Assembly: GCA_964621085.1 (NCBI GenBank) | Contig: CAZUKY010000005.1 | Span: 4,991 to 68,990, forward strand | DNA length: 64,000 nt | Origin: an uncultured Gammaproteobacteria bacterium | Lineage (GTDB): Bacteria; Patescibacteriota; Patescibacteriia; JACQRZ01 | Direction: 5' to 3' | In this document: in pieces, positions 13,138 through 55,977 of the stretch | How the letters are laid out: the number at the start of each line of letters is the position of its first letter | How positions within the stretch are numbered: the first letter of the stretch is position 1 | The notes under the pieces: generated by a model | What the model saw: the letters and a program-made list of their open reading frames with translations, nothing else | Told to the model about the DNA's origin: nothing | The model's database searches: none | Position numbers and translations under genes: made by a program

Positions 13138-13890
13138 TTAGTCCGAGGGAAATTTCTTTGCGGTCTCTGTTGCAAGTTTAAAAAGAATGCGGAGGGTTTG
13201 CGCCAGGGCTTCATTCTCAATAATCACGGATTGGATCCCTCCCTTTACCGATACGAGAGAAATCTTATTTTTATAGATAAGCACGTCTGTCCCGAAGTTC
13301 CCGTATTCTTTTGGCAAGTAGTGGCGAATCGAGCGCGCACTTCTGCCCTTTGGCGCACCCGTAAGCAGGCCATGGAAAGAAATGGTCTTGTTTTCTAAAA
13401 GTTTTTTTCGGATCAGGGAAACATCTGTTTCGTCAAAAATGGCATAAATGGCATCGAGGTCGGCGATCTCGTAAATGATTTCATTGTCGGTGGTTGACGC
13501 CATGTCCATGAATACCTGCATAGCACCCTCCTTGCCGTCATACACGCGGACCGATGTTTGTTGGGTGGCCTTTTTAAGCTTCAACTCAGGAAGAAGCTCT
13601 TTCAAATCTGACTCGAACTGCGACAGCTCGTGCGCCTTGCGGCTGATATATTGCCCGATTTTTTCGGGATCGTCGACGACGTAGTATTTTTTCTTTCCTC
13701 GTGTAACACTGGACATCAGTCCTTTATTCGCCAAAGACTCTACGGCAACATATGTCGCTTGCCGAGAGAGTTGCGTGTATTTGGCAAGATCAATAATACT
13801 GGTAGTCCCTCTTTCAAGGGCAACAAGATACGTCTTAATCTCACTTTCGAGAAATCCGAGCGACTTGAGTAGAGAGTGAATGGTCTGCAT
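13138..13890 (-). CDS. TrmB-family transcriptional regulator (paralog 2)
   Basis: Aligns along its full length with the 7799-8545 product (same HTH, same C-terminal domain). Confidence 0.8.
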   Translation of the reverse strand: MQTIHSLLKSLGFLESEIKTYLVALERGTTSIIDLAKYTQLSRQATYVAVESLANKGLMSSVTRGKKKYYVVDDPEKIGQYISRKAHELSQFESDLKELLPELKLKKATQQTSVRVYDGKEGAMQVFMDMASTTDNEIIYEIADLDAIYAIFDETDVSLIRKKLLENKTISFHGLLTGAPKGRSARSIRHYLPKEYGNFGTDVLIYKNKISLVSVKGGIQSVIIENEALAQTLRILFKLATETAKKFPSD

Positions 13891-16684: not shown

Positions 16685-16974
16685 CGTCTCCTTTCTGCAC
16701 TGCGCACTAGCGAGAGTATAGCGCCCGCAGAATAAAAAAAGAAGGGCTGATCTTTCCTATGCGCCTTTTCGTTTTTTCTCCTCATCCGTGCGGACCTTGG
16801 AACGCTTCCGTTTTGTTTTGCCGTACCAATACTTTTCCTTGCGCCCCTCAGCCCACCAGAGCCAACGCTTAAGGTACGAGGGTATGCGTTTCCGAGACAT
16901 ATGAAGGCATATGTAAGATATACGTGAATCGGGCACGTATATATGAAGGAGCGTACCGACGCACTTCATCTGCT

Positions 16975-35938: not shown

Positions 35939-36448
35939 ATGTCTACCATTAAGCAATATACCCGTAAGCGAAAATGGACGGAAAATCAATTTAAGGAAGC
36001 GGTTATCACAAGTAGAAGCAAACGACAGGTATTAAAAAAGTTGGGGTTACGAGAAGCCGGCGGCAACTACTCCCAAGTTGAAAAATATATAAAAGAATAT
36101 CGTTTAAACACATCTCATTTTACTGGATATGCTTGGAGTCGTGGGTTGACGGGTATTGGTAAGCCATTCCTTTCTCTCGCAGAAATTCTAACGATAAATA
36201 GTTCCTATCAAAGCTATAAGTTAAAGTTACGATTATTCGCAGCCGGTTTAAAGAACCAAAAATGTGAAGAATGTGGTTGGGCAAAAAAATCTAATGATGG
36301 ACGAATACCCCTCGAACTTGATCATGTAAATGGTTGTCGAACTGATAATAGAATAGAAAACCTACGCATTTTATGTCCAAACTGTCACAGCCTTAAGCCA
36401 ACTCATAGAAGAAGAAAGGATTGCAAAGCATTTGTAGGAATACATTAA
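35939..36448 (+). CDS. HNH endonuclease
   Basis: HNH motif LELDHVNGCRTDNRIENLRILCPNCHS; AT-rich relative to its neighbours. Confidence 0.8.
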   Translation: MSTIKQYTRKRKWTENQFKEAVITSRSKRQVLKKLGLREAGGNYSQVEKYIKEYRLNTSHFTGYAWSRGLTGIGKPFLSLAEILTINSSYQSYKLKLRLFAAGLKNQKCEECGWAKKSNDGRIPLELDHVNGCRTDNRIENLRILCPNCHSLKPTHRRRKDCKAFVGIH

Positions 36449-36452
36449 TCCT

Positions 36453-36536
36453 GTCCGGGTGGTGGAACGGTATACACGCGTCACTTAAAATGACGTTCCG
36501 TAAGGATTGAGGGTTCGAATCCCTCCCCGGACACCA
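36453..36536 (+). tRNA. tRNA-Leu (anticodon TAA), type II, CCA encoded
   Basis: Anticodon loop CTTAAAA, long variable arm, T-arm GAGGGTTCGAATCCCTC, acceptor GTCCGGG/CCCGGAC. Confidence 0.9.
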
Positions 36537-39021: not shown

Positions 39022-40167
39022 ATGCCCGAGGAAATCCCGCGCGAGGACTATCCGATGCGCTTCTATTTGACCGATGGCGCATACGGATATGATGGGCGGG
39101 GATACTGGTGGCATCGCCACATCCTCGCCTTCTTTGATCTTTTCGACACTGCGCCGTTCATGACGATAACAAAGACCATCACCTTCTTCCCCAAAAAGGG
39201 GAATGAGCGGTGGTACAACCCATTCCGTTGCCATCGTCTCATCCGAACATGGCCGTGGGGCGAGGATGCGTTTCAAAGTCCGAAAGTCGTCGGCATCGTT
39301 TCGGCTGACGGACTGGCGAACTGCGGATTCGAGGCGTTTGTCAGGCGATACGGCCTGCGCATCAACGAGGGATCGCGCGATACGCCACTTGTGGGACGCT
39401 ATCGGCAGCTCCAACCAGGCAAACGCCGTCGCGTCATCGTCTCCATTCACGCCCGCCGACTCGAGTTCATCGGCCTGATGGCCCGCGAGCTTGCCAAGCT
39501 GGACATCGCCGGCATCGAACTGAACATCGCACAAAACGAGACAGGGTATCGGCTCAGCAAAGTGAAGAGCAAGCACAAATTCAAGCTCTTCGAAAAGAAC
39601 ATCGACTTCGCCGTCGCCGCCTGCGAGATGCTCAAAAGCGTCACACAGCTTCCGATATACCTGAAGGTTTCCATCGAGCAGTTCCAAGCGATGCCGACCC
39701 TCTTGGAGCGTTTGGAGCAGTGCGAATACGGAGTTCGGATCCGTCATGCCGACTTCATCAGGATCAGCCCGATGGCATGGGGAACCGTATACCGCGGCGT
39801 CACGGACCGCAGTCCACTCGAACACCTTGGCGACGGTTCACTCGCAGGCATTCCCGCCCAGGAGCTGAGCTGGAAATACGCGCAGTATCTGCAGCGCCAT
39901 ACCGACATCCCGATCATTGCCGGAAGCATCTGGTCGGCTGCGGATGTGGATCAGATGCATGAGCGTTGCGGCATCACAGCATTCGCGCTGGATGGGTTGC
40001 ATCGCGTCACCCCGTGGCGCCCGCTCCAGCTTATCGCAGAGCATCAGGAGAAGTGGTTTGAGGCGCGTTTGCCCGCACCCAATCCCAATCTCCTGTACGC
40101 GCTCGCGCTCGCCCCGACACGGACACAAACTCCGTATCGGGAGCCGAGAAAAAAAATCGCACGATAA
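39022..40167 (+). CDS. Dihydroorotate dehydrogenase-fold TIM-barrel protein, divergent
   Basis: IAGIELNIAQNETG region (compare DHOD INISSPNTPG) and C-terminal PIIAGSIWSAADV (compare PIIGVGGI); novel 100-aa N-terminal extension. Confidence 0.45.
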   Translation: MPEEIPREDYPMRFYLTDGAYGYDGRGYWWHRHILAFFDLFDTAPFMTITKTITFFPKKGNERWYNPFRCHRLIRTWPWGEDAFQSPKVVGIVSADGLANCGFEAFVRRYGLRINEGSRDTPLVGRYRQLQPGKRRRVIVSIHARRLEFIGLMARELAKLDIAGIELNIAQNETGYRLSKVKSKHKFKLFEKNIDFAVAACEMLKSVTQLPIYLKVSIEQFQAMPTLLERLEQCEYGVRIRHADFIRISPMAWGTVYRGVTDRSPLEHLGDGSLAGIPAQELSWKYAQYLQRHTDIPIIAGSIWSAADVDQMHERCGITAFALDGLHRVTPWRPLQLIAEHQEKWFEARLPAPNPNLLYALALAPTRTQTPYREPRKKIAR

Positions 40168-40229: not shown

Positions 40230-41909
40230 TTACTCGGCAACACTAAACACCTCTTCAACCGATGTTGTGCCTTCGAGCGCGCGCAGCAGGCCGTCTTGCA
40301 CCATCGTGATCATGCCGTTTGCGACCGCACGGTCTTGAATCGCGTACTCCGAGACATTTTCAGAAAGGATAATCTCCTCAATTTGAGGACTCATCGGCAT
40401 AATCTCATAAATACCGATTCTTCCCTTGTAGCCAAGGCCATTGCACGCCTCGCATCCGACCGGACCGTAAAATTTCATTGAGCTCTGTTGAATCGCAATT
40501 CCGGCATTGGGCGTTATGGAACCAAGGAGTGCAGTGACGCGTTCGCGGATTTCGGGTTGGAGCGCTGTTTCCTTTTTGCACTCGGAACACAATCGCCGCA
40601 CAAGCCGCTGCCCCATAATGCAGTTCATTGCAGGAGCGAGCAAAAACGGCTTGACCCCCATTGCCAAAAATCGCGGAATTGCGCCGGCGGCGCTGTTCGT
40701 ATGAATGGTTGAAATGACAAGGTGGCCAGTCAGCGCGGCATTGATGGCGATGTCTGCCGTCTCGAGGTCCCGGATCTCGCCCACCATAACGATATCGGGG
40801 TCCTGCCGAAGAATCGAACGCAAACCGGCCGCAAACGTGTAGTTCTTGGAGACATCGATCTGGCTCTGGTTGATGCCGGCCAGCTTGTACTCGACCGGAT
40901 CTTCGAGCGTAATGATCTTGATGTCTTCCGCGTTTAGGTGATTAAGAATCGCGTAGAGCGTCGTCGTCTTTCCGGAACCGGTCGGGCCCGTTGTTATGAT
41001 CATGCCGTTGGGCTTTTCGATCTCACGTTTTAATAGCCCATAGTTGTACGGCGAGAGTCCGAGCTGGTCAAATCCCAAGCCTGCTGCTGAAGAACGGAGC
41101 AGGCGCATAACAATGCTTTCGCCGTAACTGGTGGGCAGCGTCGAGACGCGTACGTCAACCTTGTCGTCGTTCAAAAAAATAGTAAATCGGCCGTCTTGCG
41201 GACGATCCGCGACATTGATCTTGAGGCCTGCCAATAACTTTACGCGTGAAACGATTCGCGGCCAGGCTGCAGGCTCGAGGACAGCTACGTCGTGCAGCAT
41301 GCCGTCGATGCGAAAACGGACCTTTACGTCCTTCTCCTCAGCCTCGATATGAATATCCGAGGAGCGCGTCGCCAATGATGACGCGATTAAAATAGTGATG
41401 ATCTCCGTCATCGAGACGTCGCGCAACTGGTCTTTGATCGTGCGGATATCAGAAAAAGAGCCGGCGTATCTGTCGAGATCTTCTTGCGCGATGGAAACAC
41501 CGTCGGGTTCATCGACAACGCGGGGAATCTGCGCGTAGAGCTTCATCGCACTCGCAAAGCTTGCGTCCGAACAGACGTAGAGCGAAATGGTGCTGTGTGT
41601 CGTTTTGGAAAACTCGTCTAAGAATTCTTTTAACCCGTCCGCATGCGGATCGACGGCGGCGACTTTGCGGTCGCCGGGACTTTCCGCAAAACAGACGATC
41701 CGATACCGGCGCGCATCCGCCTCCGAAATACTCTCCAACGCGCCAACGGGGATAGGGATGCCCACCAATGAAATATAGGAAAGCCCAGCGGCAAAGGCTG
41801 CCATCTGGGCTTCCTGTTCTTTTTCCTTCAGCTGCAGCTCGCGCATCTTGTCGTCAAACTTTTCGGCTGCCGCGGAAGGTGTGATGTTTTTGATATGAGA
41901 GTCTGACAT
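40230..41909 (-). CDS. pilB: Type IV pilus / type II secretion assembly ATPase PilB/GspE
   Basis: Walker A GPTGSGKTT, Asp and His boxes, tetracysteine motif CSEC...CEAC. Confidence 0.9.
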   Translation of the reverse strand: MSDSHIKNITPSAAAEKFDDKMRELQLKEKEQEAQMAAFAAGLSYISLVGIPIPVGALESISEADARRYRIVCFAESPGDRKVAAVDPHADGLKEFLDEFSKTTHSTISLYVCSDASFASAMKLYAQIPRVVDEPDGVSIAQEDLDRYAGSFSDIRTIKDQLRDVSMTEIITILIASSLATRSSDIHIEAEEKDVKVRFRIDGMLHDVAVLEPAAWPRIVSRVKLLAGLKINVADRPQDGRFTIFLNDDKVDVRVSTLPTSYGESIVMRLLRSSAAGLGFDQLGLSPYNYGLLKREIEKPNGMIITTGPTGSGKTTTLYAILNHLNAEDIKIITLEDPVEYKLAGINQSQIDVSKNYTFAAGLRSILRQDPDIVMVGEIRDLETADIAINAALTGHLVISTIHTNSAAGAIPRFLAMGVKPFLLAPAMNCIMGQRLVRRLCSECKKETALQPEIRERVTALLGSITPNAGIAIQQSSMKFYGPVGCEACNGLGYKGRIGIYEIMPMSPQIEEIILSENVSEYAIQDRAVANGMITMVQDGLLRALEGTTSVEEVFSVAE

Positions 41910-45132: not shown

Positions 45133-47130
45133 TTATACGCTTAACATGACGATAAGCAACGCGACAATGTTGAGAATCTTAATCATCGGGTTGACCGCTG
45201 GGCCCGCCGTATCCTTGTACGGGTCGCCGACGGTGTCGCCGGTTACGGCTGCCTGATGCGCAAGCGATCCCTTGCCGCCGAAGTTGCCTTCTTCGATGTA
45301 TTTCTTTGCGTTATCCCACGCGCCGCCGCCGGATGTCATGGATATAGCGACAAAAATACCGGTGACGATAGAGCCGACAAGGAGACCGCCAACGGCCTCT
45401 GCGCCCAGAAGATACCACACGGCAATAGGCGCGACGACCGGCAAGAGCGCCGGTGCGATCATCGAACGGATCGCGGCCTTTGTGACGATATCAACAGTAC
45501 GTCTGTAATCCGGCTTTGCCGTTCCCTCCATAATACCGGGAATCTCCTTGAACTGACGGCGCACCTCGTCGACAACTTTCCCGCCGGTCGTTCCGACCGC
45601 CTCCATGGAAAGCGCTGCGAAGAAATACGGCAGCAGGCCGCCCACAAACAGGCCGATGAGCACGTTCGGATCATCAATAAGGAAGATAGCGGCGTTCGGA
45701 CCGCGGAGCTCGCCGAGCGCATGCGTATAATCGGCAAAGAGGACGAGTGCGGCTAACCCTGCCGATCCGATGGCATACCCCTTCGTGATTGCCTTTGTCG
45801 TATTGCCGACCGCATCCAGCGGATCGGTGATTGCGCGCACTTCCGCAGGCAGATCCGCCATCTCCGCGATGCCGCCGGCGTTATCCGTGATCGGTCCGTA
45901 CGCATCGATGGCAACGATGATGCCGGCCATCGAGAGCATTGACATCGCAGCAATCGCGATGCCGTACAAGCCGGCGAAGTTGTAGGCGACAAAGATACCC
46001 GCCGCGATGACGAGAACCGGCAGAACGGTTGCTTTCAGGGAGACCGCGAGACCGGTAATAATATTTGTCGCATGGCCAGTCTGCGAGCTTGCCGCAATGG
46101 AGCGGACCGGTGCGAACTTGGTTGATGTGTAATACTCGGTGAGAAGGACAAGCAATGCCGTGACTACCAATCCGACGAGCGTCGCACCGTAAATCATCGA
46201 CGGCTGGTATACGCCATTATCGCCCATCATTGTCATGATGATGGGATAGAGCAGCACTGCCGAGAGAATGCCGCTCACGGCCAGTCCCCGATACAGCGCG
46301 CCCATAATGCGCTTTTTGGCGTCAAGCTTGATGAAAAACCCTCCGATCACCGATGTGATGATAGATACAGCCCCGATAACGAGCGGCAAAAGCACGGCAT
46401 TTCCCATGCCGAAAAGATAGGAGCCCAGAAGCATGGTTGCAACCGCGGTAACAGCGTACGTCTCAAAGAGGTCTGCCGCCATGCCGGCGCAGTCGCCGAC
46501 GTTGTCGCCGACGTTGTCGGCAATGACCGCCGGATTGCGCGGATCGTCCTCGGGGATACCCGCTTCCACCTTGCCCACCAGGTCAGCCCCGACATCGGCC
46601 GCCTTGGTAAAGATACCGCCTCCCAATCGGGCAAAGACGGAGATAAGGCTGCCGCCAAAACCCAAACCGACAAGCGAGGCAACGTTCCCGGTCACCGCAT
46701 AAAATCCCGCAACGCCCAAGAGTCCCAAACCGACAACCAGAAGCCCCGTAACCAACCCGCCGCGCACCGCAACATTCAAGGCATGCTGCATGCCCGACTT
46801 TGCCGCTTCGGCCGTGCGGACATTTGCGCGCACGGAAATGTTCATGCCGATATATCCGGCCGCGCCCGAAAAGATTGCGCCGATCAGGAACGCTACGGCC
46901 GTTTCGATGTTGAGAAAGTAGGCGATGAAAAGCGCTACCGCAACCGCAACAACGGCGATCGTGCGGTACTGGCGATTGAGATACGCGCTCGCCCCCTCCT
47001 GTATCGCACGGGCGATCTCCTGCATTTTTTCGTTACCTGCCGGCAATCTCAGGATAAGGCGGATAAGAATTGCTCCGTAGATGATCGCGCCGATAGAAGT
47101 CGCGATCGCAAATAGGAGACTTTGTGACAT
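45133..47130 (-). CDS. hppA: Membrane-bound proton/sodium-translocating pyrophosphatase
   Basis: H+-PPase motifs [19 protein letters not shown] and [13 protein letters not shown]; about 16 TM helices. Confidence 0.95.
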
Positions 47131-47170: not shown

Positions 47171-48463
47171 TTATTCCTCGTCTGAATCTTTTTTCCCTGT
47201 ATCCTGTGCGGGTGTTGCCTCCTCGTCTCCATCATCACCCGACTCGATGATCTCTGGGCCCTCGGTGTGCTCCTCATCACCCTCGTCGTGCGCATGCTCG
47301 TCAGGGAGTACCCCGTCGCCTTCTACCTCGATATTCCAACCCGTCAGCATGGAGGCAAGGCGAACGTTCTGGCCCATCTTGCCGATCGCAAGCGACAGCT
47401 GGTCCTGCGGAACCCCCACATGAGCGAGTGCTTTTCCTTCGTCCAGGGAAATCGAGTTGATTTTCGCGGGAGAGAGCGCGTTAGCAATATACTGCTCCGG
47501 ATCCTCGTCGTACTGGATGACATCGATCTTTTCTCCGCCGAGCTCGGCGATGATCGTCTGGATGCGGCTGCCTCGCTGCCCAATACATGAGCCGATCGGA
47601 TCGATATTTTCCTGGTGGGATACAACCGCGACCTTGGAACGGAAACCCGGTTCGCGGCTCACGCCTTTCACCTCGATGCTTCCTGCTGCGATCTCAGGAA
47701 TTTCGCTCTCGAAAATTTTACGCACCATGTTCGGATGCGCGCGCGAGACAATGATCTCGGGACCCCGCGTATTGGATCCGACTGAAACAACATAGACCTT
47801 GATACGATCCCCTTGATTGTACCTTTCGCGCTGAATCTGCTCCGAAATGGGCATAACGGCGGTCACGCGACCGAAGTCGACGAGCACGCGCGACTCTTCG
47901 CGCCGCTGGACAGTGCCGATCATGATGGTATCTTCTTTATCCTTAAAGCTGTCAAACAGCATCGTCCGCTCCGCCTCGCGGATTTTTTGGATAAGCACTT
48001 GTTTTGCCGTCTGGGCGGCCATGCGCCCGAACTCGTCGGTATGAGGCGGCAGGGCGGTCCGAATTTCATCGCCAATCTCTGCGTCCGCTTTTATGAGCCG
48101 GGCATCAGAAATCATGATATCGGTTTTGGGATTAAAACGCTTCTTTCCCTCTTCACCTTCTTCTCCTCCCGCCGTCTCGACAGCCTGCGCAACACTCGGG
48201 CCGTGCGCAGATGGCGACGACTCTTCGTCGGTGACTTCCTCAAGCTCGCTTTCGTCGATATCCTCCACAACCTGTTTCACGTCAAAAACATCAAAGTCGC
48301 CGGTCTTGATATCAAACTCGACCTTGATGTTCTGATTCTTCTCGCCGAAGTCCTTGCGGTAGGCTGCTGCCAACGCCGCCTCGACCGCCTCAATGACGTC
48401 TTCAAGGGCAATGCCTTTTTCGTCACACAAGTTCTTTATTTCAGAGGCTTTTGGATTGTTCAT
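47171..48463 (-). CDS. nusA: Transcription termination/antitermination factor NusA
   Basis: NusA N-terminal domain plus S1 and KH domains; acidic insert and acidic C-terminal tail; start taken at [10 protein letters not shown]. Confidence 0.9.
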
Positions 48464-48559
48464 ATATTCTCGCAATGATCGCGTAAATTTTCTAAAAGAA
48501 AGAGGGTAGCGTGATGCTACCCTCGATAATGACAAGTATACACCGTCTGCCCCCTGTCG

Positions 48560-51500
48560 TCAAGCGGATTGCTGAGCCTCTTGAGTGGCGGGCGAATCAG
48601 GCTGCTGAGTCGTCATTCGGTTGTCTGAGTCAGGGAGGCCCGGTGGCGGGGCCAAGCTGGCCGCATCGGAATAATTCTGAGACAGCGATGCCGGCTCAAC
48701 GGATTGCACTATTGGTGACGACGCGTCAGACGGCTCTCCGGAAAGCGGCTGAAGGGGGACATTGATCTTTAACATCGTGTTCTTCTTTTTCAGCGTTACG
48801 ACCTCGCCCATGTATGCGTTCTTCTTCTTTGGTCGCTCGGCAGGCGGAAACGCGTATCGGTCTTTGGCGGCGCGCAAAATGTAGGATCCGGGCGGCGTGA
48901 GAAAGCTGAAACGGCCATGGTAATCCGACAGGCGCGTTCGCAAGAGCTTATTGTCTGGGGACTGAAAGATCGAGATTGCAGCGAGCGGAATCGGTTCGAG
49001 CGTTAACGCATCGAAGACGACGCCCCAAGGCTTTTCGATGCGAGAGGAAAGAATGTACTGGCCCACAAAGAGCGCAGCGCCAAGAATGAGAAGGGTTGTA
49101 TTCAGGGCGCTTGGCGTATAGACGGTCAGAACTCCGCTGATGACAAGACTTCCCATAATCAGGAACCGCGTCGAGCGCTGCAGCGAGGCAAAGGCGCGGC
49201 GCAGCGGCGAGTGAAACGCACCCGGATTCGGCGGGTCGAGCGGAATGCTCATGTTCAAGATCTGGTCCGGGTGCGTAATCTCGAATGAATCGCCCCGGTA
49301 CACGTCCGCATACGCGTCATCGCGCGAACCTGTCACGATCTCAGAAGGGAAATGAAACGGCGCCTTGCTGACACTAAGCTCATACGTTCCCGGTTGGGCA
49401 TAAAAGCTGAAACGCCCCGCCTTGTCGGTGACCTGCGTCTCGACAAGCTTCTTGCTCTGAGTAGAAATAAGGCGGACGATGGCAAGATCCACGGGATTTT
49501 TCGAGATAGCGTCGTACACGACTCCCCACGGCCGTCGGCGCTTCCGAATGCCAAGAACCGTCAAAAAGATTGAAAAGAAGTGGTTTGCGTAGTGATACCA
49601 TTGCAGAGTATTCGCGATGATCGCAGGATGCGTGAACGCGGCAACCGGTACCGCGACGGCGACGGTCGACTGCAAGACAGGCTCAGATGTCACGACTGCG
49701 GCGGCGACAGCAGTGTTGATCGCCGCACCGGTTGCCTTTGCCTGCTCGAGGGCTGGGCCGACCGTGCTCAGTATGTCCGCTTGCAGCGCCCCGCCGGTTA
49801 CGGAAGCAAAGAACCGAACTTGAGCCACCTGATCATCCGCATAGACGATTCGCAGAGTCAGCGGAGTCTTGCCTTTCTCGTCAGGCATTGACACTTTGCC
49901 CCGATAACAGGACCTTCGCTCATCCCATTCAAGCGCGGAGCGGTCACTTCCGAGCAGTACGGCAACCGCTTTCACGGTTTTCGGGAAAACCGTCTTTGAG
50001 ATGCAGACCTCATACGGGGTACGGGCGGGGGCGTAAAACTCGTTATTGCTATTGAGTCCGATGCGCTTGCCCGTGACATCGCTTGTCAACTGCACATCGC
50101 TTGGCATGATCGCTGTCTGCACGCCCTGCAAGGATGCCGCGGGCGTGACGGCGACCGATCGTGACTGCCGGTCAGCGGGTTGGGCACCCTCGATGCGCGG
50201 ATCGCCGAGCACTAAGAGATAGGTTAGGTGCGAGAGATTGCCGCTCACGGCATTTTTGCTCAAGGTGCTTTTTTCCGCTGCAAGCGTTCCACTGACAGGA
50301 TCCCACGAGAAGGCGCGAAGCGTCGCCGCATCAATATCTTCCAACTCGTCGGCGCGGAAAGTGATCGTATAAAAAAGAGGGTTTTCAAAACGTGTGATGG
50401 CATTGCCTGCCTGATCGTATGCCGTAATCAAATACACATGCGCTTTTACGGCCCGTTTCTCGGACGGTATGCGGACACCGGACCAGCTCCGCGCCTGCTG
50501 AATGGAGACGTTCTTGATATCGAACGTATACATGCTCGCCTTTGCCTCAAATGCGGACGGCGGCGTTTTTTGCGCAAGATCAATATCTATTCCCGCAAGG
50601 GTTGCTGTCGCGAGCTTTGCGCCACTCGGCGCTTCGCCGCGCAGGAATTCACTACTCTGACGCGGCACGACAATATCGAGTCCCATGCCGTCTTCGCGCG
50701 TAACCGTAATGCGACGACTCTCATTTGTCGGAATAACGACCCGCTGGGGCGCAGCAAGCCGGATCGACAGCGGTGCGGTACGATCGTCTTTTTCAGGAGT
50801 CTCGACTTCTTCTTTGACTGACGGCTCATCAGCAATAAGTGCGAGCGCTGGCAGTGGCTGCACAGGCGGCGGCGGAACGAAGCGAGAGACGACTCTTTCT
50901 ATTACACTGCCGGATGCAGCCGGCTGAGGGGCTTGCGGCGCGCTTCTTGTTTCTTGGGCTGCCGGCTTTTCTTCTTTCGGTTCTGTGACTGGATCAGGCT
51001 CTTTTGGCGGTGATTCCTGTTTCGCGACCGGAGGAACTGCTGGCGGCGGCTCAGGAACGCTACCGGTTGCTCCAACGAGCATGACATTTGTAAGACTGAC
51101 GTCGTTGCCGGCCGCCAGCCAGACAGGCTTGCCGCACCACTTTGTGTTGTCATTTTGACAAACGAAAGTCGACGCAGTGACAAGCTGCCGCGTACCAGTG
51201 CTTTGAAATGTCGCATGGGTACCGATTTCGATCGTTACGGTCGCTCCTGCGGCAACCGCCGTACCGGATGACGGAAAAGAAAATGTTACCGTTTTCAAAC
51301 TTGAATCAACCGCAACTCCCCACACACTCACGCCAGCAGCGCTTGCAAGCGTTGCGTCAGTGCCACTGTAACTCAAGTCGATGTCAGTGTAATCTACCGA
51401 ACCGGTACTTGATATCAGGTTCGCAAGGTCCAACTTGATCCGCTGTCCGCTCGAGACGCCGGACGTTGCGACAAAAGAAATCGTATGATTCGCGGCAGCA

Positions 51501-51631
51501 CTCGCTGTCGCGGACGACACCACATAGGTGATATTCGAAAGAGAATTTGCATGCGCGGAAAATGGCGCAACGAGAATAGAAACGATCCCAAAGACGCACG
51601 CGGTACGCAACACAATTTTTTTCATACTCAT
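48560..51631 (-). CDS. Large secreted/envelope multidomain protein (surface-cluster protein 1)
   Basis: Signal peptide; N-terminal domain paralogous to the next two genes; Pro-rich linker; C-terminal region with TM helices and two carboxypeptidase-regulatory-like repeats (RxxPWGVV[YF]DA...GRFSF). Confidence 0.7.
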   Translation of the reverse strand: MSMKKIVLRTACVFGIVSILVAPFSAHANSLSNITYVVSSATASAAANHTISFVATSGVSSGQRIKLDLANLISSTGSVDYTDIDLSYSGTDATLASAAGVSVWGVAVDSSLKTVTFSFPSSGTAVAAGATVTIEIGTHATFQSTGTRQLVTASTFVCQNDNTKWCGKPVWLAAGNDVSLTNVMLVGATGSVPEPPPAVPPVAKQESPPKEPDPVTEPKEEKPAAQETRSAPQAPQPAASGSVIERVVSRFVPPPPVQPLPALALIADEPSVKEEVETPEKDDRTAPLSIRLAAPQRVVIPTNESRRITVTREDGMGLDIVVPRQSSEFLRGEAPSGAKLATATLAGIDIDLAQKTPPSAFEAKASMYTFDIKNVSIQQARSWSGVRIPSEKRAVKAHVYLITAYDQAGNAITRFENPLFYTITFRADELEDIDAATLRAFSWDPVSGTLAAEKSTLSKNAVSGNLSHLTYLLVLGDPRIEGAQPADRQSRSVAVTPAASLQGVQTAIMPSDVQLTSDVTGKRIGLNSNNEFYAPARTPYEVCISKTVFPKTVKAVAVLLGSDRSALEWDERRSCYRGKVSMPDEKGKTPLTLRIVYADDQVAQVRFFASVTGGALQADILSTVGPALEQAKATGAAINTAVAAAVVTSEPVLQSTVAVAVPVAAFTHPAIIANTLQWYHYANHFFSIFLTVLGIRKRRRPWGVVYDAISKNPVDLAIVRLISTQSKKLVETQVTDKAGRFSFYAQPGTYELSVSKAPFHFPSEIVTGSRDDAYADVYRGDSFEITHPDQILNMSIPLDPPNPGAFHSPLRRAFASLQRSTRFLIMGSLVISGVLTVYTPSALNTTLLILGAALFVGQYILSSRIEKPWGVVFDALTLEPIPLAAISIFQSPDNKLLRTRLSDYHGRFSFLTPPGSYILRAAKDRYAFPPAERPKKKNAYMGEVVTLKKKNTMLKINVPLQPLSGEPSDASSPIVQSVEPASLSQNYSDAASLAPPPGLPDSDNRMTTQQPDSPATQEAQQSA

Positions 51632-51686
51632 GTATTCTACGACGACCGCTTGGGAAACTCAAGCAGTCAGCACCACTCCTTCTCGC

Positions 51687-53486
51687 TTACCTGCGCACCA
51701 GAACGCCAACGCGCCTGCGCACGCGCACGAAGATACCGATCCCGCTCAAGACGATGCCGAGTACGGCTGCCGTGCCGAGAAGCACCGCTGACTCCTTTTT
51801 TTGGGGAGCTGCCGGCTGTACTTCTTCTTGCGCTCCTGCGCCATCTTCTTTTGCGCCCCTTTGCCTGTCGAGAGCATCGCCGATAAGCGCAAAAATACTG
51901 AAGTGATCGACAGTTGCTGTTACGGCATTGCGATTCACATCAACAGATGAATCGAGCGCTTCCCAGAGACGCGTAACAGGATTCCAGTAGTGTATGCGCA
52001 GCGTACGCTCGTCAATGGCTTCGACGGCGGAGTCGTCATACCGAATGGTGATGCGCGCCACCTTTGACAACGCATGGACGCCGGCGTCGTTCACGAAAAG
52101 AGAAATGTCGTACAGTGTATTCCCGGGAATATTTTTCCCGTCCGGAACGAATAATCCGGTCTCTGTTTCCCGCGCCTTTTCGAGCGCAAGCGGCACAATC
52201 GCTAAGCGATAGGCAGAAGGCACCGCCCCAGCTGGCAACGATACATCAGCACCCGATGATGCATCGGCCCCAAGCGAGAATGCGCCGGCAGCGTTCGCGG
52301 CAAAAAATTCAGATTCTCGTCCTGATGTCGAAGAAGAACCGCCGCTTGCTGGTGGCGGAGAGGCGGGGGATGGCTCGCGTACACCCGAAAACACAGATGA
52401 ATTTGTTGGAGTGCCGGTTGTCACCTGAGGAGTGGAAGATGGCGCGGCAATCGAACGGGAATCCGACGGTGAAGTCGAAACTCTGTCCGTCTCAGTCGTA
52501 TCCGAGTCAGCAGACGTCTGATCGTCCAGTAAGGAGGGCTCATCTTTTTTCAGCGCGTCCGTCGGCGTACTCGACTGCTGACCCGATGCCTCAGACGGCA
52601 CAACAACCGCGCCCCCGCTCAATGCCGTCGTTGTTACTGTCACAGCTGGCGCATACGCGCTCTCCAACGCCCCGCGGACAGCTCGAATACGATAGCGGTA
52701 CGTCGTCTTCTGCTCTGCCGAGCTATCCGTATACTGCCCACCATTCGCATTGACGGTCGCGAGAAGCGAATAGATATTATCCGTTCCTGCGCGTTCGATA
52801 CGATACTGCTCAGTGCCGCCGCCGTTTGTCGAATCGACCCATGTAAGACGAGCAGACCCATCGACAAGCGCCTGCACACCGAACTGTGTCGGCGCAAGCA
52901 ATGCCACACTCACGCCAATACTGACTGAATCTTCCGAAACAATAGCAACGGCGATATTTCCGGAGTCGGGACCTGCCGTAATACTGATTTTGCGGCTTCC
53001 GATTTCCGCAGTATTGAGAAATTGACGATCTCCGGTTGCCTGTACAGATGCGTTGGTGCCGATCATAATGATGACTCGATCTCCCGCAATGATCGGAGTG
53101 CCGCTACTTACGGGATAGGAAAACGTCACCTGTCTCGTATTGGCATCAAGGGCAATGCCCCAAACTCCGCTTCCTGGCGCTGATGCGAGCTGATAGGAAA
53201 CCTCCTGTCCTGCCGCGCCGTACGCCAGATCAATATCTGTCTCGTCTAGACCATTGAATGATGAAACCGCGGCACTCATATCAAGCGTGATGGTGCCGCT
53301 ACTCATACCGCTTGCTGAGATGAAAGAAATCGTATGATTACTTGCAGTCCCCGCCTTCAAGCGACTCATCGTATCGCTCGCACGTGTAAGTCCTGCTGAA
53401 GAAACTGGGCCTGCTGTGACAAGTACGGCAAAAAACCCGGCGATCGCACCGATTACGAACAACGGTTTCACGTCAAAACCAGTCAT
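51687..53486 (-). CDS. Secreted cell-surface protein with C-terminal TM anchor (surface-cluster protein 2)
   Basis: Signal peptide; N-terminal domain SDTMSRLKAGTASNHTISF...; Ser/Pro-rich linker; a second beta-domain shared with protein 1; TM plus basic tail. Confidence 0.7.
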   Translation of the reverse strand: MTGFDVKPLFVIGAIAGFFAVLVTAGPVSSAGLTRASDTMSRLKAGTASNHTISFISASGMSSGTITLDMSAAVSSFNGLDETDIDLAYGAAGQEVSYQLASAPGSGVWGIALDANTRQVTFSYPVSSGTPIIAGDRVIIMIGTNASVQATGDRQFLNTAEIGSRKISITAGPDSGNIAVAIVSEDSVSIGVSVALLAPTQFGVQALVDGSARLTWVDSTNGGGTEQYRIERAGTDNIYSLLATVNANGGQYTDSSAEQKTTYRYRIRAVRGALESAYAPAVTVTTTALSGGAVVVPSEASGQQSSTPTDALKKDEPSLLDDQTSADSDTTETDRVSTSPSDSRSIAAPSSTPQVTTGTPTNSSVFSGVREPSPASPPPASGGSSSTSGRESEFFAANAAGAFSLGADASSGADVSLPAGAVPSAYRLAIVPLALEKARETETGLFVPDGKNIPGNTLYDISLFVNDAGVHALSKVARITIRYDDSAVEAIDERTLRIHYWNPVTRLWEALDSSVDVNRNAVTATVDHFSIFALIGDALDRQRGAKEDGAGAQEEVQPAAPQKKESAVLLGTAAVLGIVLSGIGIFVRVRRRVGVLVRR

Positions 53487-53583
53487 GATTAATCATGATT
53501 ACTTTCACTTGTAATCATATCAAAGCGGAAACGAAAAAGCGATCCCGGAAACGGGATCGCTTTTGGTGATTCTGAGGGCTGAA

Positions 53584-54498
53584 CTACTTCTTCATCGACA
53601 TCATCATGTTGCGAATGAGCATGATGAGAATCGCAATAATGACTACGGCGATGATCAGCCACAAGGCCATCAGACCTGTCGGCAAGACCCAGAAGGTGGC
53701 TTGTGCCATTTGAGCACTGGAACCGATCGCAACTTCGGCAACGGCGGTGTATTTGCCGAGTGCGAAACCGTCTTTCCACTGCACCTCAAACTTGCGCGTG
53801 CTGTTGGGTGCAACGTATCCCGTATCTCCGCGCGATTCATTGAGACTTAATGTCTCAACCGTGCGTCCGAAAGCGTCACGGATCGAAACGGTACCCTGCG
53901 GTTTGAAGGCGGTATTTCCAGTGTTGGTCACGCGAAGCGCAAACCCGACCGGAAGTCTGCTATATCGATCGGAGCTGCCAAGGGTTGAAAAACTTGTGAG
54001 TGTTCCTGAAAGCGACCGCCCTGGACCGTCGACATCGAGAAGCATAAGACTTGTCACACCGCTTTGAACGGCGACACCCTCTCCCCCCGCTTCGCCAAGA
54101 GATGACCAGACAACCGCCAGGTTATACGTACCGCCAGCTGCATCGGCAGGAACACTGATCAAAACCGGAACTTCAAGTGACTGTCCTGGTGCAACAGTCA
54201 CGGACTGTTCTTTGAAGACAACCCAGTCGGCTGCGGTGCCGGAGGCGTCACCCAGAAGCTGCGGCGTGCCGGACTCGTCACCTGCCGCCGGCGTAAACAG
54301 TGTTGCCGCCGGGCGAAGCGTAACCGGAGCGTTCTCATTATTGGTAAGCTTAACGGCTGTCGCGGCGGTCTGGCCGGGTTTCGCATTTACCGTCGTACTT
54401 GCGGGTGCGAGCGTCAGAGCAGATGCCGGGACACCGAACGCAAGGGCAATCGCCAGTGCCGCAAACGCACTTAATACGTATTTCTTCATAACAAGCAT
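53584..54498 (-). CDS. DUF916/DUF3324-like cell-surface protein with C-terminal TM anchor
   Basis: Signal peptide, two beta-rich domains, C-terminal TM (LMALWLIIAVVIIAILIML) and a short basic tail. Confidence 0.55.
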   Translation of the reverse strand: MLVMKKYVLSAFAALAIALAFGVPASALTLAPASTTVNAKPGQTAATAVKLTNNENAPVTLRPAATLFTPAAGDESGTPQLLGDASGTAADWVVFKEQSVTVAPGQSLEVPVLISVPADAAGGTYNLAVVWSSLGEAGGEGVAVQSGVTSLMLLDVDGPGRSLSGTLTSFSTLGSSDRYSRLPVGFALRVTNTGNTAFKPQGTVSIRDAFGRTVETLSLNESRGDTGYVAPNSTRKFEVQWKDGFALGKYTAVAEVAIGSSAQMAQATFWVLPTGLMALWLIIAVVIIAILIMLIRNMMMSMKK

Positions 54499-54527
54499 GG
54501 GAGTTATGGCATTAAAGATCGAGGACT

Positions 54528-55754
54528 TTAGTAGGTTGCAGTTGCGATAAACGTGAGTGTCTCTGCGTAATCCGCAGCAGCTGCCGTCGTCGTGCTTGCC
54601 TTAGCAAAAATGCGAACTGTTGCTGTCGTAGAGGCGAGCGCCGCTCCTCCGGTCGTCACAATCTGGCTATTGCTACTATGCGAGGTAAAAATCTGACCAA
54701 TGCTTTGATTTTCTGTCGTAGTTGACGAACAAGTCGCTGAGCCGAGTGATGCGTCATAATGAGTACCACGTGTCAATGAGGTGCCATCTGCGACACAAAG
54801 ACCAACCGCCGCTGACGTCGTGGAGCTATAGGTGATTTCTTCCTCGTTCGTCACAGTTGCCACGGTACCTCCCGTTGATGAAGAGAGCAAATTGCCATTC
54901 GTGCCGATAACCGAGATGACGGCCCCTTGATCTGCATTCGTTCCGAGGGTAAGGGTGAGGGAATCGGTCGAAAACTGGCTCGTCGAGAGTTGTCCTAATG
55001 CTAGTGCCGTGTCATCAATAGCAAACGATAGTGTCGGGTCGATCGACGCCGTCACGCTCACCTGGTCGTCGCTTACAACCGGAACAGTAACTGTTTTTAC
55101 ATTGTCGTTTGTGTTGTCAGCGCTCGCGGCTGTCGTAATAGCATCTCCCCCAACCTCAGATACGTAATGCCGGATACTCACCTGATATGTGTTTGCTGAC
55201 GAGGGGTTGAGAAGCTTTGTCGTAGCCGTCGCTGCGTCGTTCAGTGTAATTCTAATCGTTCCACCAGCATCACCTGCAGCAGCGGTACTGCATTTACGAA
55301 TAGAGAACGAGGGATCGGAGCCGTCTGCAGCTGTTGTTACTGCGGCCTTATATCCTGCAGTGTTAGCGCAGGTTGATGAGAATGTCAGAGTGCCAGCAGC
55401 TGTCGTATTAATATCAGCATCAGCTGTCGATAATTCGACCATAGCAGTGCTAACCTCGTGCTCAACTTTGATATCTGCATCAACCCAGGTACCTCCTGAT
55501 GTGGCGCTCACCGTAAAGGCAGCCGGAAAATCAATGACAATATCTTCGAGTGCATTCCATGTCACGCCGCCTGGAAGATCGAACTGAATGATGTGCTCTG
55601 CGCCAGTACTGGTCTTTTGCCGCGACATCGTATCAGAAACAGTTAGCAAATCATTTGTCGCATTCGTGACCGGCACAAAACCAGCAAACGCCAATGCCCA
55701 AATTGTTGAAAAAATCGTAAGCTTGCTTACGAAGCGTGAAACGCGTTGCTTCAT
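54528..55754 (-). CDS. Secreted surface protein (surface-cluster protein 3), Thr/Ala/Ser-rich
   Basis: Signal peptide; N-terminal SDTMSRQKTSTGAEHIIQF motif paralogous to proteins 1 and 2. Confidence 0.65.
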   Translation of the reverse strand: MKQRVSRFVSKLTIFSTIWALAFAGFVPVTNATNDLLTVSDTMSRQKTSTGAEHIIQFDLPGGVTWNALEDIVIDFPAAFTVSATSGGTWVDADIKVEHEVSTAMVELSTADADINTTAAGTLTFSSTCANTAGYKAAVTTAADGSDPSFSIRKCSTAAAGDAGGTIRITLNDAATATTKLLNPSSANTYQVSIRHYVSEVGGDAITTAASADNTNDNVKTVTVPVVSDDQVSVTASIDPTLSFAIDDTALALGQLSTSQFSTDSLTLTLGTNADQGAVISVIGTNGNLLSSSTGGTVATVTNEEEITYSSTTSAAVGLCVADGTSLTRGTHYDASLGSATCSSTTTENQSIGQIFTSHSSNSQIVTTGGAALASTTATVRIFAKASTTTAAAADYAETLTFIATATY

Positions 55755-55977
55755 ATATGGTTGTTCAAGATTCTAGCTCTCGGTTCTTGCGAGAACCGCC
55801 ATTATTTAAAGATTTGTCCATCGGCACAGCTATTATTTTCGGGACGTTGTCGACCGCACCCCAAAAAAAGCTGCGAATGAAATTCACATCACTGCTTTAT
55901 TATAGCAGCTTTTTGCTGGCCTGTAGAGCTCTCGGTTGTGGACAAGTTTGCAAATCAGATTTTTTTAATACGCCGAA

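What the first reader, a model, noticed from the sequence alone, without database searches (positions are those of the whole stretch)
48560..55754. Cluster of four secreted/anchored proteins; three share a paralogous N-terminal domain with TasA/camelysin-like motifs
Four consecutive minus-strand genes (1023, 599, 304 and 408 aa) all begin with signal peptides. Proteins 1, 2 and 3 share a domain of about 130 aa right after the signal. Compare ANHTISFVATSGVSSGQRIKLDLANL..DYTDIDLSY with SNHTISFISASGMSSGTITLDMSAAV..DETDIDLAY; proteins 2 and 3 both carry SDTMSR[LQ]K. Proteins 1 and 2 also share a second beta-domain ending in a hydrophobic strand (LSHLTYLLVLGD versus VDHFSIFALIGD). The N-terminal pattern (S-D-x after the signal, then N-x-F, then SG-x-[IL]-x-LD[LM]) resembles the mature N-terminus of Bacillus TasA/camelysin (FSDKE..N.F.AGTLDL). 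That N-terminus is the donor strand of SipW-processed biofilm fibres. The 304-aa member has the DUF916/DUF3324-like layout with a C-terminal TM anchor, as in Firmicute csc/WxL surface-complex loci. Protein 1 adds a C-terminal membrane region with two repeats of TM-R/KxxPWGVV[YF]DA followed by a carboxypeptidase-regulatory-like domain. Together this looks like an operon for a surface fibre or surface complex; I know of no description of such a system in a reduced-genome lineage of this kind.
Basis: partly seen in the sequence, partly recalled or inferred. Interest (0 to 1): 0.65.

Follow-up and report, generated by a model that had tools for sequence, protein, structure and literature searches.

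The report
Pam-type pilus operon, CPR bacterium
These four genes are a divergent copy of the Pam pilus system, described in 2026 in ultra-small CPR bacteria: one fibre subunit, one membrane-anchored chaperone and two likely membrane anchors. It is not related to Bacillus TasA biofilm fibres.

Summary
The four minus-strand genes (408, 304, 599 and 1023 aa) exist as described, and all the quoted motifs are present. The 408-aa protein is a two-domain pilin. It belongs to a large CPR family (2,266 cluster representatives) whose Saccharibacteria members pass NCBIfam's Pam-pilin model; the window protein itself scores below the cut-off. The 304-aa protein folds confidently into two beta-sandwiches plus a C-terminal membrane helix. 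Its best structural matches are Enterococcus WxLIP and chaperone-usher chaperones, which fits the PamC/PamD layout. The 599- and 1023-aa proteins start with the pilin N-domain; the 599-aa one also keeps the conserved linker strand. Neither has the acceptor C-domain, and both end in membrane anchors. I infer that they end the fibre and tether it to the membrane. Gene order (pilin, then chaperone) is conserved in 51 of 53 related CPR loci. Synteny places the window near Candidatus Uhrbacteria. The TasA/camelysin/SipW idea finds no support in sequence, profile or fold searches. Such a system has now been published (Troman et al. 2026). This is a new variant of a known kind, of moderate interest.

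The parts
55899..55927 (-). Promoter-like site (TCTACA-17-TATAAT with TG), about 145 nt upstream of the pilin start codon
   Evidence: Consensus scan, 10 of 12 matches. A pattern match only.
54528..55754 (-). Pam-type pilin gene (408 aa): signal peptide, N-terminal beta-sandwich domain, linker strand, C-terminal acceptor domain
   Evidence: NF058581 CPR_Pam_pilin_C matches residues 247-408 over the full model, at 26.7 bits against a cut-off of 55. The family has 2,266 representatives; 22 of 59 members hit NF058581, best E=2e-44. AF2 gives an all-beta two-domain model, pLDDT 65.
55614..55637 (-). Conserved SDTMSRQK motif (residues 40-47) just after the signal peptide; function unexplained
   Evidence: Among the most conserved stretches of alignments A1, A2 and A4. 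Also present in Saccharibacteria pilins.
55035..55073 (-). Inter-domain linker DDQVSVTASIDP (residues 228-240), the inferred donor strand
   Evidence: The most conserved block of the family ('DQVxVTAxVDP'). It alternates hydrophobic residues and is coil in the monomer AF2 model, between the last N-domain strand and the first C-domain strand. In PamA and PamB the linker is the donated strand (paper).
54531..55034 (-). Pilin C-terminal domain (residues 241-408), ending at the protein's C-terminus in the conserved strand TLTFIATATY
   Evidence: pilCTD HMM E=2e-32; NF058581; lower pLDDT, as expected for an incomplete fold.
53584..54498 (-). Membrane-anchored two-domain chaperone-like protein (304 aa), PamC/PamD-like and WxLIP-like
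   Evidence: AF2 pLDDT 86, pTM 0.72: two beta-sandwiches plus a TM helix at 274-303. Foldseek matches WxLIP 9i25_C at 5e-11, and also CsuC, CfaA, DraB and FimC. Profile A3 matches EfmWxLIP1 at E=7e-10. A gene of this family follows the last pilin gene in 51 of 53 loci.
51687..53486 (-). Anchor candidate 1 (599 aa): signal peptide, pilin N-domain plus linker, Fn3, S/T/P-rich spacer, beta domain 'dom2', one TM helix, basic tail
   Evidence: hhalign to the pilin family covers residues 7-193 including the linker. Fn3 at 198-282, TM at 568-586, no pilCTD hit.
52902..53396 (-). Pilin-type N-domain plus linker of the 599-aa protein (residues 31-195; linker IAVAIVSEDSVSIGVSV)
51729..51785 (-). C-terminal TM helix of the 599-aa protein (residues 568-586), followed by RVRRRVGVLVRR
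   Evidence: Hydropathy scan.
48560..51631 (-). Anchor candidate 2 (1023 aa): signal peptide, pilin N-domain, degenerate linker, Pro-rich spacer, dom2, then two TM + PWGVV + CarboxypepD_reg modules
   Evidence: hhalign residues 3-154; Pfam CarboxypepD_reg x2; the same N-domain ... 2x(TM-CPD) layout occurs in proteins of 1,100-2,000 aa in 12 related loci.
51068..51547 (-). Pilin-type N-domain of the 1023-aa protein (residues 29-188)
50117..50671 (-). dom2 of the 1023-aa protein (residues 321-505), paralogous to residues 386-565 of the 599-aa protein (51792-52331); fold unknown
   Evidence: blastp E=2.6e-9. Not found in the other loci.
49202..49636 (-). TM + RKRRR-PWGVVYDA + CarboxypepD_reg, repeat 1 (residues 666-810)
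48701..49123 (-). TM hairpin + PWGVVFDA + CarboxypepD_reg, repeat 2 (residues 837-977)
48502..48524 (-). Terminator-like hairpin plus T-run, just after the 1023-aa gene's stop codon
   Evidence: 9-bp stem with 6 G-C pairs, then TTTCTTTT. A pattern match only.

Best explanation
The cluster is a four-gene operon for a Pam-type pilus in a Uhrbacteria-like CPR bacterium. Pam pili are the donor-strand-exchange fibres solved in 2026 from Ca. Mycosynbacter amalyticus.

Proposed mechanism:
1. All four products are exported by Sec.
2. The 408-aa pilin has an N-terminal beta-sandwich, a conserved linker strand (DDQVSVTASIDP) and a C-terminal Ig-like domain that ends at its last strand, so it lacks one strand.
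3. The 304-aa protein is a PapD/WxLIP-like two-domain chaperone held in the membrane by a C-terminal helix. It caps the open C-domain until the linker of the next pilin replaces it. The fibre therefore grows from its base without an usher or ATP.
4. The 599- and 1023-aa proteins carry the pilin N-domain, and the 599-aa one also carries the linker. Neither has an acceptor domain. Their C-termini sit in the membrane: one helix in the 599-aa protein, about three helices in the 1023-aa protein. By the positive-inside rule the two CarboxypepD_reg domains of the 1023-aa protein lie in the cytoplasm.
5. These two proteins would plug the last pilin, stop growth and tether the fibre through Pro- or Ser/Thr-rich spacers. 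That is the role proposed for PamR.

Shown here: the homologies, the domain layouts and the conserved gene order. Inferred: polymerisation, chaperone action, the anchor role and membrane topology.
For: Pilin:
- NF058581 'Pam pilus system pilin subunit' aligns end to end with residues 247-408.
- The family is large (2,266 representatives at E<=1e-3).
- It includes Saccharibacteria pilins that pass the NF058581 cut-off (83-89 bits against 55) and that match the window pilin (tblastn E of 8e-17, 3e-15 and 2e-12).
- 22 of 59 family members hit NF058581 and 8 hit the PamT model.
- The most conserved blocks are the linker and the C-terminal strand, as reported for PamA and PamB.
- There is one Cys pair per domain; the paper reports paired cysteines.

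Chaperone:
- Confident AF2 model.
- Foldseek hits to WxLIP and to CsuC, CfaA, DraB and FimC, with target-normalised TM-scores (TMt) of 0.43-0.56; RbmA matches less well (0.32-0.35).
- It has a C-terminal TM helix, as described for PamC and PamD.

Gene order and context:
- A chaperone gene follows the last pilin gene in 51 of 53 loci, and a C-domain-only PamT-like gene lies upstream in 39 of 52.
- One related locus sits next to the ATP synthase operon, a neighbourhood the paper also notes.

Anchors:
- hhalign 99.1% and 98.7% to the pilin N-domain.
- The linker is conserved in the 599-aa protein and in the giant anchors of other loci.
- No C-domain is detectable in either protein.

Lineage: synteny with Ca. 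Uhrbacteria contig JAHFHK010000032, where ValRS is 61% identical and the methyltransferase, YraN, pilin, chaperone and 599-like genes follow in the same order.
Against: - The window pilin scores only 26.7 bits against NF058581 (cut-off 55), so membership rests on transitive homology.
- The pilin model is of moderate quality (pLDDT 65, pTM 0.51). Its PDB matches are generic Ig-like two-domain proteins with TM-scores near 0.2.
- The PamA and PamB coordinates were not in the PDB copy, so no direct fold comparison was possible.
- No subunit-subunit or chaperone-subunit complex could be predicted.
- The window has no PamT-like tip gene and no separate RbmA-like PamR.
- The linker of the 1023-aa protein is degenerate.
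- The chaperone family has no conserved basic pair like Arg8/Lys112 of PapD.
- No fibre has been seen on any Uhrbacteria cell.
Confidence: 0.78

Rival explanations
1. A WxL/csc-type cell-surface complex rather than a polymer. The 304-aa WxLIP homologue would hold the secreted 408-aa protein (and the N-domains of the other two) non-covalently at the cell surface as an adhesion platform, as proposed for Firmicute WxL clusters.
For: WxLIP is the best structural and sequence match of the 304-aa protein. The Uhrbacteria ortholog passes the Pfam WxLIP_PGBD cut-off. In WxL clusters a beta-hairpin of DUF916 is predicted to insert into the WxL domain (PMC10599100).
Against: None of the four proteins, and none of 59 pilin-family members, has a WxL domain (Pfam). 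There is no dual W-x-L motif and no LPXTG partner. The pilin-family profile does not hit any PDB sequence at E<=10, although entry 9i25 contains a WxL protein chain (title). Relatives of the 408-aa protein form filaments in cryo-EM.
Confidence: 0.1
2. A TasA/camelysin-like fibre. Here the mature N-terminus (SDTMSR...) would be the donor strand and a SipW-class signal peptidase would process the subunits.
Against: No Peptidase_M73 hit. No PDB sequence hit. No TasA in the top 50 Foldseek matches. hhalign probability 0.1% against a recalled TasA sequence. The 'LD[LM]' word is not conserved in the family. No S26 peptidase in the 34 ORFs scanned. The signal peptides have ordinary A-x-A sites.
Confidence: 0.03
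3. Unrelated secreted or anchored envelope proteins (adhesins or S-layer-associated proteins) that share an Ig-like module and lie together without forming one machine.
For: Ig-like, Fn3 and CarboxypepD_reg domains are common in surface proteins. The PDB matches of the pilin model are generic.
Against: The order pilin, chaperone, N-domain-bearing anchor recurs across many CPR lineages. The N-domain and linker are shared specifically between the pilin and the anchors. Intergenic gaps are short, with one promoter-like and one terminator-like site flanking the four genes.
Confidence: 0.07

Closest known systems
Pam pilus of Candidatus Mycosynbacter amalyticus (PamA/PamB pilins, PamC/PamD chaperones, PamT tip, PamR terminator); Troman et al. 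2026, bioRxiv 10.64898/2026.03.03.709456
   Same: CPR host. Sec signal peptides on every component. [quoted passage not shown] The chaperone is a two-domain PapD-like protein with a C-terminal TM helix, encoded right after the pilin. There is no usher. The pilin C-domain matches NCBIfam NF058581 along its whole length.
   Different: The window protein is below the NF058581 cut-off (26.7 against 55 bits). [quoted passage not shown] The operon has only one pilin and one chaperone. There is no PamT-like tip and no RbmA-like PamR in 64 kb. Instead there are two proteins that fuse a full pilin N-domain to membrane anchors. One of them has a polytopic 2x(TM-CarboxypepD_reg) module that the paper does not describe; it may be the paper's unassigned 'tail fibre-like protein', given a weak phage_tail_N hit in a homologue.
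Chaperone-usher pili of Gram-negative bacteria (Pap, Fim, Csu, CFA/I)
   Same: The subunit has an incomplete Ig fold ending at its C-terminal strand and is completed by a strand from the next subunit. The chaperone is a boomerang of two beta-sandwich domains (Foldseek hits to CsuC, CfaA, DraB and FimC). Growth is from the base, and termination is by a subunit that cannot accept a strand.
   Different: There is no outer membrane and no usher. The chaperone is membrane-anchored rather than periplasmic. The donor strand is an internal linker between two domains, not an N-terminal extension. No sequence similarity is detectable.
WxL / csc surface-protein clusters of Lactobacillales and Bacillales, with WxLIP (DUF916-DUF3324-TM); Hassan et al. 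2023, PMC10599100; PDB 9i1y, 9i25
   Same: The 304-aa family is homologous to WxLIP at sequence-profile level (E=7e-10) and has the same layout of three parts. Both are encoded next to secreted surface proteins in monoderm-type envelopes. In both, a chaperone-side beta element is predicted to insert into the partner.
   Different: There is no WxL domain, no dual W-x-L motif and no LPXTG CscD-like protein. The partner here is a polymerising two-domain pilin. WxL complexes are not known to form fibres.
TasA / camelysin (Peptidase_M73) fibres with the SipW signal peptidase (Bacillus)
   Same: A Sec-exported, all-beta subunit is thought to polymerise by donating a strand to its neighbour in a monoderm envelope.
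   Different: No sequence, profile or fold match was found. The donor element differs: linker here, N-terminus in TasA (from my knowledge of the TasA fibre work). No SipW-like gene was found in the window. TasA systems have no dedicated two-domain chaperone.

Membership tests
Pam pilus system (CPR) | Pilin C-terminal domain recognised by NCBIfam NF058581 (CPR_Pam_pilin_C) | tested here: inconclusive
   The window pilin gives E=4.9e-6 and 26.7 bits against a cut-off of 55, aligned over model positions 2-148 of 148. Family members pass: L022, L027 and L037 at 83-89 bits, and 22 of 59 members hit with best E=2e-44.
Pam pilus system (CPR) | [quoted passage not shown] | tested here: met
   The AF2 model is all-beta with two domains, and the linker 229-240 is unpaired between them. 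The N-domain and C-domain HMMs both match. The protein ends at the last conserved strand. Whether the C-domain is really 'truncated' could not be checked on coordinates.
Pam pilus system (CPR) | Polymerisation by insertion of the linker strand into the neighbour's C-domain | not testable with these tools
   No multimer prediction was available, and the PamA/PamB coordinates are not in the PDB copy.
Pam pilus system (CPR) | Adjacent PapD/FimC-like two-domain chaperone with a C-terminal TM helix (PamC/PamD) | tested here: met
   AF2 pLDDT 86. Foldseek matches WxLIP, CsuC, CfaA, DraB and FimC. TM helix at 277-295. Same gene position in 51 of 53 loci.
Pam pilus system (CPR) | Single-domain tip pilin PamT and RbmA-like terminator PamR in the operon | tested here: not met
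   No second C-domain-bearing ORF and no further chaperone-like or RbmA-like ORF in the 64-kb window. The rest of the genome was not available.
Pam pilus system (CPR) | Host belongs to the Candidate Phyla Radiation | tested here: met
   Synteny with a Ca. Uhrbacteria contig. Most named records among the homologous loci are CPR MAGs; many others carry non-CPR labels, which I take to be mislabels.
Chaperone-usher pili | Outer-membrane usher and soluble periplasmic chaperone | tested here: not met
   No usher-like ORF in the cluster or its neighbours. The chaperone-like protein carries a TM anchor.
WxL / csc surface complex | WxLIP protein (DUF916 + DUF3324 + TM helix) | tested here: met
   Sub-threshold PF06030 and PF11797 hits in the 304-aa protein. 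Profile A3 matches EfmWxLIP1 at E=7e-10. Top Foldseek hit is 9i25_C. The L010 ortholog scores 33.0 bits against a cut-off of 27.3 for PF06030.
WxL / csc surface complex | Small and large proteins carrying a C-terminal WxL domain | tested here: not met
   No WxL domain hit in the four proteins or in 59 pilin-family members. No dual W-x-L motif.
TasA / camelysin fibres | Peptidase_M73 (TasA/camelysin) domain in the subunit | tested here: not met
   No Pfam hit at E<=1. No PDB sequence hit at E<=10. No TasA among the top 50 Foldseek hits. hhalign 0.1% against a recalled TasA sequence.
TasA / camelysin fibres | Dedicated SipW-class signal peptidase in or near the operon | tested here: not met
   No Peptidase_S26 among the 34 window ORFs scanned. 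The whole genome was not available.

The most novel reading that the evidence does not exclude
Two linked claims.

(1) Outside Saccharibacteria, Pam-type pili would be tethered not by an RbmA-like PamR but by an undescribed class of 'donor-only' subunits. These have a pilin N-domain plus linker, fused through Fn3 or spacer regions to a conserved polytopic module of two TM + PWGVV + CarboxypepD_reg repeats whose beta-sandwich domains face the cytoplasm. That would give the fibre a transmembrane base able to couple it to the cell interior.

(2) The Pam chaperones and the Firmicute WxLIP proteins share ancestry. Pam pili and WxL surface complexes would then be two branches of one monoderm system in which a membrane-anchored chaperone assists surface assembly by strand complementation.
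Probability: 0.4. Interest if true: 0.6.

Novelty: new variant of a known kind. Interest (0 to 1): 0.45.

Why it matters
CPR bacteria make up a large share of bacterial diversity and mostly live attached to host cells. How they reach and hold their hosts is largely unknown. The Pam pilus is the first CPR-specific fibre with a structure, and so far it has been studied in one Saccharibacterium.

This locus adds three points:
- The same pilin-chaperone core exists in an Uhrbacteria-like lineage in a minimal form of one pilin and one chaperone.
- It suggests how such fibres are fixed to the membrane, through subunit-like proteins that can donate a strand but cannot accept one. Homologous giant versions occur in many CPR groups.
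- It links the Pam chaperones by sequence to the WxLIP proteins of lactic acid bacteria and enterococci, which suggests a common origin for two surface-assembly systems.

None of this overturns current knowledge. It gives concrete, testable parts for the base of the pilus.

Tried and rejected
- The PamA/PamB coordinates were not in the PDB copy, so no direct comparison was possible.
The 4-sequence alignment A1 worked.
- Looking up source names for window proteins gave no names. The pilin itself is not indexed by position. The lineage was inferred from synteny instead.
- tblastn of a chaperone homologue against plasmids, meant to reach WxL clusters, gave only one weak Deinococcus hit. The pilin C-domain could therefore not be compared with WxL domains by profile.
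- NCBIfam has no model that matches the chaperone family or the anchors.
- A search for further Pam components in all six frames of the window found none.
- The first literature searches, for 'Pam pilus' and 'PamA', found nothing. 'Pam pili' found the paper.

Full report
**1. Observation.**
The region 48560-55754 holds four consecutive minus-strand ORFs of 408, 304, 599 and 1023 aa in transcription order. They are separated by 29, 97 and 55 bp. A sigma-70-like site (55927-55899) lies upstream of the first gene. A hairpin plus T-run (48524-48502) follows the last. All four proteins begin with a basic n-region, a hydrophobic core and an A-x-A-type site.

The 599- and 1023-aa proteins share an N-terminal domain (43% identity over 146 aa, E=4e-25). 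They also share a second domain (28% over 184 aa, E=2.6e-9). The 1023-aa protein has two internal repeats of TM, PWGVV[YF]DA and a CarboxypepD_reg domain (Pfam E=5e-14; repeats 32% identical, E=3e-21).

One correction is needed. The third protein with the N-domain and the SDTMSR motif is the 408-aa protein, not the 304-aa one. By BLAST it shares only about 40 residues with the 599-aa protein (E=6e-4). The full-domain relationship appears only with profiles.

**2. What the 408-aa protein is.**
Pfam finds nothing. NCBIfam model NF058581, 'Pam pilus system pilin subunit', aligns over its whole length with residues 247-408, at 26.7 bits against a cut-off of 55. That name led to Troman et al. 2026 (bioRxiv 10.64898/2026.03.03.709456).

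In that work, cryo-EM of filaments from the Saccharibacterium Ca. Mycosynbacter amalyticus identified two pilins, PamA and PamB. [quoted passage not shown] The C-domain accepts the linker of the neighbouring subunit. The operon also encodes:
- PamC and PamD, PapD/FimC-like chaperones with a C-terminal TM helix;
- PamT, a single-domain tip subunit;
- PamR, an RbmA-like terminator with a TM helix.

Homologues of the window pilin are few by word-indexed search. A profile search of 1.84 billion representatives found 2,266 at E<=1e-3 and 329 at E<=1e-30. Of 59 sampled members, 22 hit NF058581 (best E=2e-44) and 8 hit the PamT model NF058579. Saccharibacteria members pass the curated cut-off at 83-89 bits. 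Those same members match the window protein by tblastn, with E from 8e-17 to 2e-12.

The conserved blocks of the family are:
- SDTMSRLK just after the signal peptide;
- HTIxF;
- IGTNA...QIxNPSSA;
- the linker AVPIVxDDQVSVTATVDP;
- the C-terminal strand DYxxTLTFIATATF, which ends the protein.

The paper reports that the linker and its binding site are the most conserved parts of PamA and PamB. The AF2 model (pLDDT 65) is all-beta with two domains. The linker 229-240 is left unpaired between them. There is one Cys pair per domain. Foldseek against the PDB gives only generic two-domain Ig-like matches: integrin calf domains, MSCRAMMs, the cohesin dyad, FimH/FocH and RbmA. TM-scores are near 0.2. 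No Pam entry had been released.

**3. The 304-aa protein.**
AF2 is confident (pLDDT 86, pTM 0.72). The model has a signal peptide, two beta-sandwich domains and a TM helix at 274-303. The best PDB matches are E. faecium WxLIP (9i25_C at 5e-11; 9i1y) and the chaperone-usher chaperones CsuC, CfaA, DraB and FimC, with target-normalised TM-scores (TMt) of 0.43-0.56. RbmA matches with a worse superposition (0.32-0.35).

The family profile hits EfmWxLIP1 by sequence at E=7e-10. The syntenic Uhrbacteria ortholog passes the Pfam WxLIP_PGBD cut-off. The same protein also fits the description of PamC and PamD. The Pam paper does not mention WxL. For WxLIP, a beta-hairpin of DUF916 is predicted to insert into the WxL domain (PMC10599100).

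**4. The 599- and 1023-aa proteins.**
hhalign of the pilin family against the 599-aa protein gives 99.1% probability (E=1e-18) over residues 7-193. This includes the linker: IAVAIVSEDSVSIGVS aligns with VPVVSDDQVSVTAS. Against the 1023-aa protein it gives 98.7% (E=4e-16) over residues 3-154, which is the N-domain only. Neither protein has any detectable C-domain.

The 599-aa protein continues with Fn3 (198-282), an S/T/P-rich spacer, dom2, one TM helix (568-586) and a basic tail.

The 1023-aa protein continues with a Pro-rich spacer, dom2 and the two TM-CarboxypepD_reg modules. There appears to be one helix before the first module and a hairpin before the second. Each is followed by basic residues, so the positive-inside rule places both beta-sandwich domains in the cytoplasm. 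This is inference.

**5. Related loci.**
A scan of GTDB species representatives gave 59 loci. Named records come from Uhrbacteria, Woykebacteria, Doudnabacteria, Berkelbacteria, Falkowbacteria, Kerfeldbacteria, Peribacteria, Paceibacterota, Minisyncoccota and Saccharibacteria. Many TPA records are labelled 'uncultured Gammaproteobacteria', which I take to be mislabels.

An HMM survey of their ORFs shows a recurring gene order:
- a C-domain-only PamT-like gene, sometimes at the end of a giant protein, just upstream of the pilin in 39 of 52 loci;
- the pilin gene or genes;
- one to three chaperone-family genes, with one directly following the last pilin in 51 of 53 loci;
- in 12 loci, a protein (most of 1,100-2,000 aa) carrying the same 2x(TM-PWGVV-CarboxypepD_reg) module as the window's 1023-aa protein; most of these also have a detectable N-terminal pilin N-domain, and those aligned have the linker followed by Fn3 repeats.

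One of these anchors has a weak phage_tail_N hit. It may therefore be the unassigned 'tail fibre-like protein' that the paper lists as a conserved neighbour. None of the Saccharibacteria loci showed this protein within 8 kb.

The window is syntenic with Ca. Uhrbacteria contig JAHFHK010000032 (L010): ValRS is 61% identical, and the methyltransferase, YraN, pilin, chaperone and 599-like genes follow in the same order. That locus, like the window, lacks an upstream PamT-like gene.

**6. Mechanism (inferred).**
Sec exports all four products. The membrane-anchored chaperone would cap the open C-domain of newly exported pilin. The linker of the next pilin would displace it, so the fibre grows from the base without an usher.

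The 599- and 1023-aa proteins can donate a strand but cannot accept one, and they are fixed in the membrane. They would therefore end polymerisation and tether the fibre. This is the role the paper assigns to PamR. The degenerate linker of the 1023-aa protein, the function of dom2 and the strongly conserved SDTMSRLK motif remain unexplained.

**7.
The general idea holds: a donor-strand surface fibre with a WxLIP-like partner. The TasA/camelysin/SipW link does not hold:
- no Peptidase_M73 hit;
- no PDB sequence hit;
- no TasA among the Foldseek hits;
- hhalign 0.1% against a recalled TasA sequence;
- the LD[LM] word is not conserved in the family;
- no S26 peptidase or sortase among 34 scanned ORFs;
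- no LPXTG motif.

**8. Novelty and score.**
The kind of system is known since 2026, from the preprint and the NCBIfam models. This locus is a divergent variant. It is Uhrbacteria-like and minimal, with one pilin and one chaperone. It has no PamT or PamR. It carries two anchor proteins that bear the pilin N-domain, one of a conserved polytopic class not described in the paper. The sequence-level link between Pam chaperones and Firmicute WxLIP is also not in the paper.

Interest is moderate at 0.45. Confidence that this is a Pam-type pilus operon is about 0.78. Confidence in the anchor role is lower, about 0.55.

Noticed in passing
window 55614-55637; 599-aa protein residues 37-44; family alignments A1, A2 and A4: The motif SDTMSR[LQ]K, a few residues after the predicted signal-peptide cleavage site, is among the most conserved parts of the whole pilin family, Saccharibacteria included. 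It is also kept in the 599-aa anchor. The Pam paper names the linker and the C-domain site as the conserved parts and does not single out this motif. Its role is unexplained.
   Followed up: partly
L042 3506-7921, L044 3237-7892, L045, L051, L037 5151-7871, L002 17-2740; also P0088 (2924 aa) and P0111 (1790 aa): In many loci the gene upstream of the pilin is a giant protein (700-2,900 aa) whose last ~160 residues are a Pam pilin C-domain (NF058581 68 bits in L042). L042 has a large internal duplication. These look like tip adhesins with an acceptor domain, similar in layout to 'large WxL' proteins.
   Followed up: partly
window 47171-48535 (-): The listed nusA ORF starts at TTG 48535, but a terminator-like hairpin (48524-48502) lies inside its first codons. 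The real start is probably the ATG at about 48463 ([10 protein letters not shown]...). That leaves an intergenic region of about 100 bp after the 1023-aa gene.
   Followed up: partly
window 40230-41909 (-): A T2SSE/PilB-type secretion ATPase (Pfam E=3e-125, with an MshEN domain) lies 7 kb downstream of the cluster. The genome may therefore also encode type IV pilus or competence machinery. The adjacent 381-aa ORF (39022-40167) has no Pfam hit.
   Followed up: no
window 45133-47130 (-): A membrane H+-pyrophosphatase lies two genes downstream of the cluster. The Pam paper notes ATP-synthase and PMF-related neighbours of pam operons, and locus L003 has the ATP synthase operon next to its pilin-chaperone pair. 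This may be coincidence.
   Followed up: no
window 35939-36448 (+) and tRNA 36453-36533 (+): An HNH endonuclease ORF ends 5 bp before a tRNA gene. This may be a homing-endonuclease or intron-related arrangement, of the kind reported for CPR tRNA genes.
   Followed up: no
window 7799-8545 (-) and 13138-13890 (-): Two TrmB-family regulator paralogues, both most similar to the same gene of the Uhrbacteria locus L010 (46% and 40% identity). A tmRNA gene (10209-10564) lies between them.
   Followed up: no
loci L006, L007, L013, L014, L020, L021 and others; L025 and L050: Many GTDB species-representative MAG records that carry CPR-type pam loci are titled 'uncultured Gammaproteobacteria bacterium', and two are titled 'Candidatus Nanoarchaeia archaeon'. 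These are probably mislabelled submissions rather than non-CPR occurrences. This matters for any claim that Pam pili are restricted to CPR.
   Followed up: no
window 16924-18186 (+): A 420-aa CBS-domain protein. The Pam paper mentions a CorB-like CBS protein near the M. amalyticus operon. Here it lies 30 kb away, and its type was not checked.
   Followed up: no
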